Source: Octopus vulgaris (lineage: Eukaryota). Taken from it: a stretch of DNA of 64,000 nucleotides. The stretch covers positions 96,100,001-96,164,000 of the forward strand of contig OX597819.1 in assembly GCA_951406725.2 (NCBI GenBank), given 5' to 3'. The notes beneath the pieces are model-generated. The model was given only the letters and a program-made list of their open reading frames with translations, ran no database searches and was not told where the DNA came from. Position numbers and translations under genes: made by a program. This document shows, piece after piece, positions 30,831 to 33,204 of the stretch (the first letter of the stretch is position 1; every line of letters begins with the position of its first letter).

Positions 30831-31926
30831 AGGGGTAATCTAAATTTAGACCTAAGGGCGGGTAGTACTCTATCATACAGTAAAATTTAAGCACACCACC
30901 TCAACATGTTTTTACCTCGGCTTCAGTCCCGCCCTATAAGCAAATATCTCCCACTCCGTGATGGTTTTTTTTTCACTCTGAATCTAAGGTGAGTAACTCT
31001 AATGAATGAAAGAAATTTTTTTCATGGCTTTTAACCAGGATAATTTCGTTCTAGCTTTTAGAACAGCTGATCAGGTGTAATATTTTCAAACTTCCAGTGG
31101 GAAAGAACCCATGCTATACTTTTACTTTCAACCTTCCCTGATGACTGTCGTTGTTATCTTCAATTCCTGTATGAAACCAATTGGTAAAATAGGAGAATAT
31201 AATGTATCTTATAAATAATAAAACGTCCACTCAGTTACTTAATATATAAGTACTTGATTTATATATTAGGGACTAGTAGACCCAACAGCGTTTGGTAATC
31301 GGTGCGCATTCAAAGCCAGTGAATAGTAGTTGACGAAACCGGTGTGCCTTTGAATCCCTTTAATAATTCAAAATAATGACTTTATTTTTCTTAATTCTAC
31401 CTCAGTTCATCTAATTGTGTATATTAATCGTTACTTTTCATAAAAGAATCTTTATCTTTTTGGATATTTTTTTGATATTCAATGTGCATTTTCGGTTTTT
31501 TTCTTCTTACTTTCTTACTTCTTACTTTCCCACATAATTTTTCTACGGGAGGGGTGTACAGTTATATATATGCATTTTTTAATACATACATTCATTTATG
31601 AGTGTGTGTGTGTATGTATTTGTATATTTCTGTATATATATATAAATATATATATATATATATATATGTGTGTGTGTGTGTGTATACATATGTATGTATG
31701 TATGTATGTATGTATGTATGTATGTATGTATGTATGTATGTATGTATGTATGTAGGTATATATATATATATAAACAACTTATAAGTAAGGGCTAAAGAAA
31801 ATTATTTCAATGCCAATATGCTGATAACAGACTATTAAATCGTCAATTTCCACATATAATTTACTCGCTACAGAAAAAACCGAAGAACTGAAATCGGGCA
31901 AGCCGGCCGATAGAATTTTTTTAAAA

Positions 31927-32002
31927 TTCGTTATTTCTATATTGAATCAATTTCGGAATTAATCTCGTAAAAGACTTATTCCTCTTCAGTAGAACTTACG
32001 AA
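31927..32002 (-). ncRNA. Type-I hammerhead ribozyme, intact (left-arm copy)
   Basis: Reverse complement of the motif at 32516-32591. Confidence 0.83.
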
Positions 32003-32515
32003 AGGATATAAATAAGATACCTACATGCGCCCATGGAAAAAGCCAAAGCAAAAATCATGAGTACATTTAAATACCCCAGATATATCTAAAAATAAAATTA
32101 TTTGGTCAGCCTCAGTACAACGTGTTAACTGTTCCCCACTACAGGTTATAGTGGTTACTAGTCCCTATAGCGAGTAGTAATAAGTCTATTACTAATATAG
32201 GATGAAGTTTTTTTTCCACAGAAAAAAATTCCATCAAAAAATGTGGCAGCATATTAAAATACCTTTACGGTTAAAATTATAAAATTATAAAATTTTCTGT
32301 AGAAAAAAAACTTCATCCTATATTAGTAGTAAACTTATTACCACTCGCTACAGGGACTGGTAACAACTATAACCTGTAGTGGGGAACAGTTAACACGTTG
32401 TACTGAGGCTGACCAAATAATTTTATTTTTAGATATATCTGGGATACTTAAATGTACTCATGATTTTTGCTTTGGCTTTTTCCATGGGCGCATGTAGGTA
32501 TCTTATTTATATCCT

Positions 32516-32591
32516 TTCGTAAGTTCTACTGAAGAGGAATAAGTCTTTTACGAGATTAATTCCGAAATTGATTCAATATAGAAATGACGAA
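32516..32591 (+). ncRNA. Type-I hammerhead ribozyme, intact (right-arm copy)
   Basis: UUCUA-CUGAAGA-GGAAU..AUUCC-GAA-AUUGAUUCAAU-A-UAGAA. Stem I extends through UUCGU/ACGAA. Predicted cut after 32578. Confidence 0.85.
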
Positions 32592-33204
32592 TTTTAAAAA
32601 AATTCTATCGGCCGGCTTGCCCGATTTCAGTTCTTCGGTTTTTCTGTAGCGAGTAAATTATATGTGGAAATTGACGATTTAATAGTCTGTTATCAGCATA
32701 TTGGCATTGAAATAATTTTCTTTAGCCCTTACTTATAAGTTGTTTATAATTTTAACTGTAAAGGTATTTTAATATGCTGCCACATTTTTTGATGGAATTT
32801 TTTTCTGTAGAAAAAAAAAACTTCATCCTATATTAGTAGTAGACTTACACACACACACACACACACACACACACACACACACACACACACACACACACAC
32901 ACACACACACATATATATATATATATATATATATATATATGTTGTATTTCGGGATGGTCATTTTATTTTATTTCATTTTATTTGCCAAATAAATATACGC
33001 ACTATATATTGTTTCTTCACTCGTTTATTACCGTTCTTATTTTATTATTCTAACTCACGTCCATTGTCTGGAAATCTTTCGTCATACATCTGTGACTTCT
33101 TAAGTGACACTTTTCGTTTTCATGTGTGTTCTTGCTCCGCTTACTCCATTCTGTTCTTCTAAAACGTGTATCCTTATGTGCATATGCGTTTGTGCCCCTG
33201 TTTG

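What the first reader, a model, noticed from the sequence alone, without database searches (positions are those of the whole stretch)
31769..32847. 510-bp hammerhead unit present head-to-head in two different circular permutations
Seen: the right arm is about 1.09 units with terminal redundancy (period 510, 32311 vs 32821). The left arm is one inverted unit opened about 60 nt away on the same circle. Neither breakpoint is the predicted cleavage site (32578), and both ribozymes are intact with few arm differences. Inference: the template was a circular or multimeric RNA copied by rolling reverse transcription with a strand switch, as proposed for retrozymes. A solo tandem/inverted Penelope pLTR is the alternative; a PLE RT lies about 1 kb to the left.
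Basis: partly seen in the sequence, partly recalled or inferred. Interest (0 to 1): 0.75.

Follow-up and report, generated by a model that had tools for sequence, protein, structure and literature searches.

The report
Hammerhead retrozyme inserted Penelope-style, two-ended
This is one copy of an abundant protein-free jumping element carrying a predicted self-cutting RNA, a known kind; its mirror-image layout recurs across the genome with two fixed ends, which suggests that a Penelope-type enzyme likely copies one RNA, possibly a circle, from both sides of a DNA cut.

Summary
In detail: two arms of a 510-nt unit lie head to head, each with an intact type I hammerhead. It is one insertion of a dispersed, ORF-less family (103 independent loci examined). 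The breakpoints are not scattered round the circle: 145 of 164 arms end 3' at one of two fixed sites, A (unit end) or B (92 nt further, the Penelope 'tail'), usually in (TA)n; none ends at the cleavage site; only 5' ends vary. 49 of 103 loci are head to head, and 40 of 42 with two canonical ends pair one A with one B. Paired arms share subfamily variants and correlated inner ends; a fold-back cannot build this locus. Best reading: a non-LTR retrozyme mobilised in trans by a Penelope-like RT/endonuclease that primes at both cut strands on one RNA. The neighbouring PLE is an older, unrelated insertion; no autonomous parent was found. Circularity, cleavage and expression are untested; this locus cannot itself release a monomer. 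A 466-nt sister family shows the same ends and compensatory ribozyme changes. The scan's notes report the same reading for other families in this genome.

The parts
31769..32283 (-). Left arm: u505-510 + u1-510, one full turn of the unit; outer (3') end at fixed site A
31927..32002 (-). Type I hammerhead motif, left arm (C3 at 31989, predicted cut after 31940)
32284..32292 (.). Head-to-head junction, 9 extra nt duplicating the adjacent AAAATTATA
   Evidence: sequence
32293..32748 (+). Right arm body u54-510, 5'-truncated; passes site A at 32748
32516..32591 (+). Type I hammerhead motif, right arm (CUGAAGA 32529-32535, GAAA 32564-32567, predicted cut after 32578)
32749..32847 (+). Tail u1-98 (terminal redundancy); family site B is normally at 32841 (u92), here 6 nt longer
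31590..31768 (.). Left flank: (TG)n/(TA)n/(TATG)n microsatellite ending in (TA)n, the likely target; no TSD can be read
   Evidence: sequence
32848..32941 (.). Right flank: (CA)n then (TA)n
   Evidence: sequence
31268..31468 (+). Separate insertion: 3' end of an older Neptune-like PLE family with a minimal hammerhead-like motif; not part of the element
29614..30880 (-). Separate insertion: decayed PLE RT/GIY-YIG remnant of a Hydra-like family (about 80% to relatives); not the parent of the unit

Best explanation
This is one insertion of a dispersed, ORF-less 510-nt repeat family with a predicted type I hammerhead (a non-LTR retrozyme) whose copies end at two fixed sites in (TA)n, and it was likely written by a Penelope-like RT/endonuclease acting in trans that primed one cDNA from each cut DNA strand on the same RNA. 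Shown: family, two fixed 3' ends, variable 5' ends, A+B pairing, shared variants and correlated inner ends of paired arms, conserved fold. Inferred: the enzyme cuts (TA)n; one strand primes at site B (u92), the other at site A (u510), both of which end in TA; both cDNAs run upstream, here for 555 and 515 nt, and are joined at their 3' ends, giving the head-to-head layout with a tail on one side only. Both cDNAs cross the u510/u1 junction, so the template was longer than one unit or closed. I favour (about 50:50 to 60:40) a circle made by double hammerhead cleavage and ligation at the few loci that hold two ribozymes in direct tandem; a read-through linear multimer is the alternative. This locus, with its ribozymes on opposite strands, would be a dead-end product of that cycle.
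For: 3' ends: 72 at A, 73 at B, 19 other of 164 arms in 103 loci; (TA)4 within 30 nt after 122 of 145 A/B ends; 0 within 10 nt of the cut site. Head to head in 49 of 103 loci; A+B in 40 of 42 with two canonical ends (the one A+A is a chaining miss); in 36 loci found with a query blind to the ends, 20 of 21 are A+B, binomial p=1e-5. Inverted arms of one locus disagree at 75 of 632 subfamily sites (12%) against 41% between loci; this locus 1 of 44 against 35%. Inner ends of A and B arms lie within 25 nt in 11 of 28 pairs, 3.7 expected, 0 of 20000 permutations. Extra GTA repeats (3 or more) at 8 of 53 terminal B sites, 0 of 45 internal copies, p=0.006, as expected from slippage at a priming site. 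24 of 139 arms run through a whole unit and continue into the next unit. Sister family V (466 nt, about 75% identity in aligned columns) has the homologous ends: 42 of 51 arms at v459-466 or v84-99, and by my count 9 A+B, 1 B+B, 0 A+A, 5 with an odd end among 15 head-to-head loci of 30. A young 781-aa PLE family in the genome ends in (TA)n at two sites in the same way. Two internal RT start sites defining the tail were shown in vitro for a lizard PLE (PMC11167929).
Against: No autonomous parent or partner was identified: the unit profile hit none of 88 PLE-related loci except a family-V insertion in a flank. The tail is 92 nt against 30-40 nt described for PLEs (PMC8557442). 11 of 34 A+B pairs have near-symmetric inner ends, which a fold-back would also give. 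Tandems do not need a ribozyme or circle: Naiad and Chlamys PLEs lack canonical hammerheads and still form them (PMC8557442). In the lizard PLE, hammerhead cleavage was not needed for insertion in vitro (PMC11167929), and 8 of 9 Xenopus retrozyme dimers did not cleave (bioRxiv 10.64898/2026.07.22.740005). Only the 40 best candidates of each search were scored, so the sample leans to young copies; two of the five queries also select for long or tail-bearing copies. GTA expansion could be post-insertion instability beside (TA)n.
Confidence: 0.75

Rival explanations
1. Same family and twin priming, but the template is an uncleaved linear read-through RNA from tandem loci (with RT template jumps making new tandems); no circle is involved and the ribozyme is incidental to insertion.
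For: 50 of 55 arms that reach u350 read through the cut site, with no significant pile-up there (5 of 55, p=0.20), which fits uncleaved RNA as well as ligated circles. 7 of 26 arms that reach a full unit stop 502-521 nt upstream of site A, which could be an RNA 5' end. Hammerhead-less PLEs form tandems (PMC8557442); ribozyme mutants still insert in vitro (PMC11167929).
Against: The ribozyme is canonical and kept by compensatory changes between families U and V, so it is probably active. The longest array seen is 1318 nt (2.6 units) and a search with it found none longer among 40 scored of 2847 candidates, so long linear masters are not evident. circRNAs were shown for coral, mussel and axolotl retrozymes (PMC7229834).
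Confidence: 0.35
2. One reading: one RT rolls round the template and switches strand (fold-back or self-priming on an antisense template, as proposed in PMC3846280) to make the inverted arm.
For: Near-symmetric inner ends in 11 of 34 A+B pairs and junction overlaps of up to 21 nt. PMC3846280 reads palindromic junctions in rotifer PLEs as self-priming.
Against: Here the left arm starts about 60 nt upstream of the right arm's 5' end, so it is no fold-back copy of the right cDNA; the left cDNA lacks the tail, so the right arm is no fold-back copy of it. In 7 of 34 pairs the A arm reaches over 25 nt further upstream than the B arm. A fold-back does not by itself predict one A and one B end.
Confidence: 0.12
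3. The unit is merely the pLTR stub of an autonomous PLE (for example the neighbouring RT), and this locus is a truncated solo insertion.
For: All insertion features are those of PLE ends (PMC8557442, PMC3846280); most copies are shorter than one unit plus tail; the search for a parent was not exhaustive.
Against: Long arms continue upstream into more unit (24 of 139) and internal tails continue into u93-510, not into an ORF. PLE protein hits occur in the flanks of only 3 of 73 loci tested, none contiguous with the unit. 0 of 29 and 0 of 30 relatives of the neighbouring PLE carry the unit. The young 781-aa PLE has its own, different pLTR.
Confidence: 0.1
4. The inversion is an assembly artefact or a post-insertion DNA rearrangement.
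For: Inverted PLE structures are hard to assemble (PMC8557442).
Against: The arms differ at 10 of 456 sites, and 49 of 103 loci, plus 15 of 30 of the sister family, show the same layout with the same A+B rule and different junctions.
Confidence: 0.03

Closest known systems
Metazoan non-LTR retrozymes (Cervera and de la Pena 2020, PMC7229834; Li, Clavereau and Pollet 2026, bioRxiv 10.64898/2026.07.22.740005)
   Same: ORF-less, low-GC (32%) unit of a few hundred bases with one canonical type I hammerhead, predicted highly paired, co-occurring with PLEs, proposed to be mobilised by PLE RT from a circRNA.
   Different: Unit is 510 nt (150-450 in the 2020 paper, 51-972 in the preprint); copies seen are mostly dispersed sub-unit to 1.3-unit insertions, not long arrays; this locus is an inverted pair, not a direct dimer. 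The parts I read do not map insertion ends; the preprint favours local amplification of pLTRs. No homology to a known pLTR was found here.
EN+ Penelope-like element insertions (PMC3846280; PMC8557442; PMC11167929)
   Same: 5' truncation, partial tandems, inverted 5' copy, tail on one end only, (TA)n targets (Neptune, Hydra, Naiad), hammerhead in the repeat, two RT start sites defining the tail.
   Different: No RT or GIY-YIG ORF; the whole body is 510 nt; tail 92 nt rather than 30-40; canonical rather than minimal hammerhead.
Non-autonomous Chlamys elements such as MRC1 (PMC8557442, passage)
   Same: Non-coding PLE-dependent elements with pLTRs and head-to-tail multicopy insertions.
   Different: They lack canonical hammerheads and resemble an autonomous family at the 3' end; no such partner was found here.
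L1 twin priming (recalled, no call)
   Same: Both cut strands prime on one RNA and give an inverted 5' part.
   Different: In L1 the two parts do not overlap and the second start is variable; here both arms overlap and both starts are fixed.

Membership tests
Non-LTR retrozyme | Canonical type I hammerhead in the unit | tested here: met
   Core intact in both arms and 56 of 65 ribozyme-spanning segments (sample leans to conserved copies); 95% of cells paired in 58 distinct rows; two-sided changes between families U and V in stems I and II (alignment fitted to the model). No Rfam hit.
Non-LTR retrozyme | Short, low-GC, non-coding unit | tested here: met
   510 nt, GC 0.32; longest stop-to-stop frames inside the arms 54-55 aa; no PLE protein hit within the unit.
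Non-LTR retrozyme | [quoted passage not shown] | tested here: met
   Met by the family: 5 of 103 loci hold two ribozymes in direct tandem. Not met by this locus, whose ribozymes face opposite ways.
Non-LTR retrozyme | Highly self-paired unit RNA | tested here: met
   Predicted only: circular MFE -122.6 against -96.3+/-5.6, 0 of 60 shuffles; antisense z -3.5, family V z -7.6; shared variants keep pairing more than singletons, 25 of 39 against 39 of 203, transitions only 23 of 29 against 38 of 74, p=0.008.
Non-LTR retrozyme | Self-cleavage of the RNA | not testable with these tools
   Needs a transcription assay.
Non-LTR retrozyme | Accumulation as circular RNA | not testable with these tools
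   Only assembled contigs of runs guessed to be RNA were available.
Non-LTR retrozyme | No LTR, PBS or PPT; long TSD when present | tested here: inconclusive
   No TSD readable in (TA)n flanks; PBS and PPT were not searched.
Autonomous EN+ PLE | RT plus GIY-YIG ORF between pLTRs | tested here: not met
   no ORF in or contiguous with the unit.
PLE-type insertion footprint | Fixed 3' end, 5' truncation, partial tandem | tested here: met
PLE-type insertion footprint | Inverted 5' copy with tail on one end only | tested here: met
   40 of 42 A+B; tail 92 nt, longer than described.
PLE-type insertion footprint | (TA)n target | tested here: met
   122 of 145 A/B ends against 6 of 19 other ends.
PLE-type insertion footprint | Homology to the pLTR of a partner PLE | tested here: inconclusive
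   None in 88 PLE-related loci of about five families; not all PLE families were sampled.

The most novel reading that the evidence does not exclude
Each head-to-head insertion is the record of a Penelope RT dimer priming both cut DNA strands on a single 510-nt ribozyme-ligated RNA circle: one RT starts at A, the other 92 nt behind at B with telomerase-like slippage, and the second follows and displaces the first round the ring. Small retrozyme circles would then be a minimal, defined substrate that explains the tail, the inverted pLTR and the partial tandems of Penelope elements in one step.
Probability: 0.35. Interest if true: 0.72.

Novelty: new member of a known kind. Interest (0 to 1): 0.45.

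Why it matters
How Penelope-like elements make their inverted ends, tails and tandems is open, and PLE mobilisation of animal retrozymes is proposed rather than shown in the papers read. Because this family is short, abundant and ORF-less, its copies give countable evidence: two fixed starts, one of each per inverted insertion, one template per insertion, and repeat addition at the start site. That favours twin priming over self-priming and names exact RNA sites (u92, u510) and a candidate enzyme (the young 781-aa PLE) for an in vitro test. The element class and the layout themselves are known, and circularity is untested, so the interest is moderate.

Tried and rejected
Rfam: no hammerhead match. 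Pfam on five fragments of the neighbouring PLE frames: nothing above cut-off; the Atlas gave GIY-YIG and HTH_animal clusters for a relative's frame. Neighbouring PLE as parent: rejected. Young 781-aa PLE as parent: no homology above noise; a shared ATCCTA shortly before site B in U, V and this PLE is only a lead. Search for an intact Hydra-like partner: best 150 of 8786 candidates had open frames of at most 343 aa; a homologue search returned 1 short protein; further routes were not available, so the partner question stays open. RNA: no RNA holder listed on record; four runs guessed to be RNA hold diverged family pieces in 29-30 of 30 bins, as contigs only, which shows neither strand, ends nor circles, and no silent control stretch was laid. 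Junction: no listed contig of four runs bridged it, which proves nothing. Pile-up of 5' ends at the cut site: not significant. A 5'-end hotspot at u54-58 was set aside as query bias. An intron around the ribozyme (GTAAGT-like words) was considered and dropped: the word is absent from most copies and the upstream one lies in a predicted helix. The alifold-based pairing test is circular and was replaced. Whole-unit U/V comparison gave 55 shared pairs of 146 (null mean 9, max 31) but only 3 two-sided changes (null max 2), so covariation outside the ribozyme is weak. Paper searches found no count of A+B pairing or repeat addition at PLE tails; the library is partial and supplements were not read (bioRxiv ones are closed).

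Full report
Observation. The sequence and alignments confirm two arms of one 510-nt unit, U, numbered u1-u510 in ribozyme sense from window 32278 down to 31769. The left arm (minus, 32283-31769) is u505-510 plus u1-510; the right arm (plus, 32293-32847) is u54-510 plus u1-98. Nine extra bases at the junction repeat the adjacent sequence. The arms differ at 10 of 456 sites. Each has a type I hammerhead with core CUGAAGA and GAAA, a 4-bp stem III and an AUA triplet, predicted cut after u339 (32578). Rfam does not detect it; the isolated MFE fold shows stems I and II but mispairs the core in place of stem III (z -1.95).

The family. The window lies in a 2.8-Gb animal genome (probably a cephalopod: recalled impression and AI notes, not tested). 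Five searches with different parts of the unit gave 1391-2847 first-look candidates, of which 40 were scored each (candidates are not copy numbers). After removing duplicates I mapped 103 independent loci from the first four (searches added those without a locus id). Of 164 arms, 72 end 3' at site A (u500-510), 73 at site B (u84-101, mostly u92) and 19 elsewhere; none ends within 10 nt of the cut site; (TA)4 follows within 30 nt after 58 of 72 A ends, 64 of 73 B ends and 6 of 19 others. 5' ends are spread over the unit, with an excess at u384-415 (16 of 75, p=0.007) on one strand of a long predicted helix. This is the Penelope footprint: fixed end, optional tail, 5' truncation, inverted 5' copy, (TA)n target (PMC8557442, passages and section 11; PMC3846280, passages), with a longer tail.

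Not a stub of the neighbouring PLE. The RT/GIY-YIG remnant at 29614-30880 belongs to an old family (about 80% identity) with a CxCX5C linker in relatives, the motif given for the Hydra clade (PMC8557442; no tree was built). None of 29 DNA-found and 30 protein-found relatives carries the unit within about 1.5 kb. Between it and the left arm lie a 200-bp end of a different, Neptune-like family (PLE protein hits in 10 of 14 relatives) and a microsatellite. PLE protein hits occur in the flanks of 3 of 73 unit loci tested (30 later loci were not tested). 24 of 139 arms run through a whole unit and go on into the next unit. So the element's whole body is the 510-nt unit. A young PLE with a 781-aa frame (many intact copies among 148 GIY-YIG hits) has its own 456-bp pLTR, two ends in (TA)n and a short tail but no homology to U; it is a candidate enzyme only.

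The RNA is under structural constraint. The unit folds far better than shuffles (z -4.7; antisense -3.5). Variants shared by five or more loci keep predicted pairs more often than singletons (25 of 39 against 39 of 203; transitions only 23 of 29 against 38 of 74). A sister family V, 466 nt, found by chance beside a PLE (2770 candidates), has homologous ends at v466 and v90 (42 of 51 arms after dropping 16 self-hairpin hits) and a ribozyme with two-sided changes in stems I and II (alignment fitted to the model and including weak hits, so the overall 20 of 24 pairs is inflated). Outside the ribozyme the fold is shared (55 of 146 pairs, null max 31) but two-sided changes are few (3).

How the inversion arises. 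49 of 103 loci are head to head; a tail-to-tail flag arose in 1 of the 73 loci checked. Of 42 with two canonical outer ends, 40 pair A with B, 1 is B+B and 1 scored A+A is a chaining miss; 7 have an odd end. In the 36 loci found with u422-510, which both arm types contain, 20 of 21 are A+B (p=1e-5). Paired arms agree at subfamily sites (12% discordant against 41% between loci; background at other columns 4%), and their inner ends are correlated (11 of 28 within 25 nt, 3.7 expected). Terminal B sites carry extra GTA repeats in 8 of 53 cases, internal copies in 0 of 45. For this locus a fold-back fails both ways: the left arm begins about 60 nt upstream of the right arm's 5' end, and lacks the tail that the right arm ends with. 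The simplest reading (inference) is twin priming: each cut strand of a (TA)n target primes at one of two TA-ending sites on the same RNA, in line with the two internal start sites shown in vitro for a lizard PLE and its predicted dimer (PMC11167929, main text). That the tail sits on one of the inverted ends is already described (PMC3846280); that paper proposes self-priming on an antisense template, which may still account for some symmetric pairs.

Circle or multimer. Both arms cross u510/u1, so one linear template would need at least 613 nt. 5 of 103 loci have two ribozymes in direct tandem and could release a monomer; the longest array seen is 1318 nt. 50 of 55 arms read through the cut site, so templates were uncleaved or religated. 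7 of 26 arms reaching a full unit, this left arm among them, stop 502-521 nt upstream of A, which fits either an RT meeting the primed site after one turn or an RNA 5' end. circRNAs are shown for other animal retrozymes and PLE mobilisation was proposed there (PMC7229834, results and discussion read; bioRxiv 10.64898/2026.07.22.740005, abstract to discussion read), and opposite-strand hammerhead pairs 100-700 bp apart were noted in Schistosoma PLE remnants (PMC4209133, first quarter read). Against necessity: tandems form without ribozymes in Naiad and Chlamys, and cleavage was dispensable in vitro. The available sequencing contigs do not decide it.

Verdict. A new member of a known kind: a non-LTR retrozyme family with a Penelope insertion footprint. 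The added value is the countable support for two-ended priming on one template. Earlier notes of this scan, read after my analysis was in place, reach the same reading for other families in this genome; they are not independent support.

Noticed in passing
window 31268-31468 (+); L165-L178: 3' end of an older Neptune-like PLE family. Most of 14 relatives read GTGAACA where a hammerhead core has CUGANGA, i.e. a swapped G3:C8 pair, followed by a short stem II, GAAA, CCGG, UA and a pairing stem I; the window copy has GTGAATA. Possible natural core variant of a minimal hammerhead.
   Followed up: partly
L221 1967-1502 (minus); L194-L223: Sister retrozyme family V, 466 nt, copies about 96% alike, same two fixed ends, same fold and head-to-head rule.
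   Followed up: partly
L179-L186, L190: Young PLE family with an intact 781-aa RT/GIY-YIG frame, an upstream frame of up to 479 aa, a 456-bp pLTR with a U3:A8 hammerhead-like core, and two 3' ends in (TA)n about 34 nt apart.
   Followed up: partly
L193 5134-5223 (minus): A third, more distant type I hammerhead with long stem II inside a short (TA)n-flanked element (35 bits, E 1e-4 with the U model).
   Followed up: no
window 32234-32269: In DNA-run contigs the u10-45 part of the unit has about 40-50 times the summed depth of u120-180, suggesting many more families share the start of the tail (depth is no copy number).
   Followed up: no
window 29487-29648 (+): [quoted passage not shown]
   Followed up: no
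window 33256-33472: Long imperfect hairpin (about 217 nt), probably a small inverted-repeat element; only sub-threshold miRNA-family hits.
   Followed up: no
window 6114-7256 (+), 62633-63145 (+), 12600-13130 (+): Other mobile-element remnants: a non-LTR C-terminal part with weak zf-RVT hit, an RT fragment, and a helicase-like fragment (recalled resemblance).
   Followed up: no
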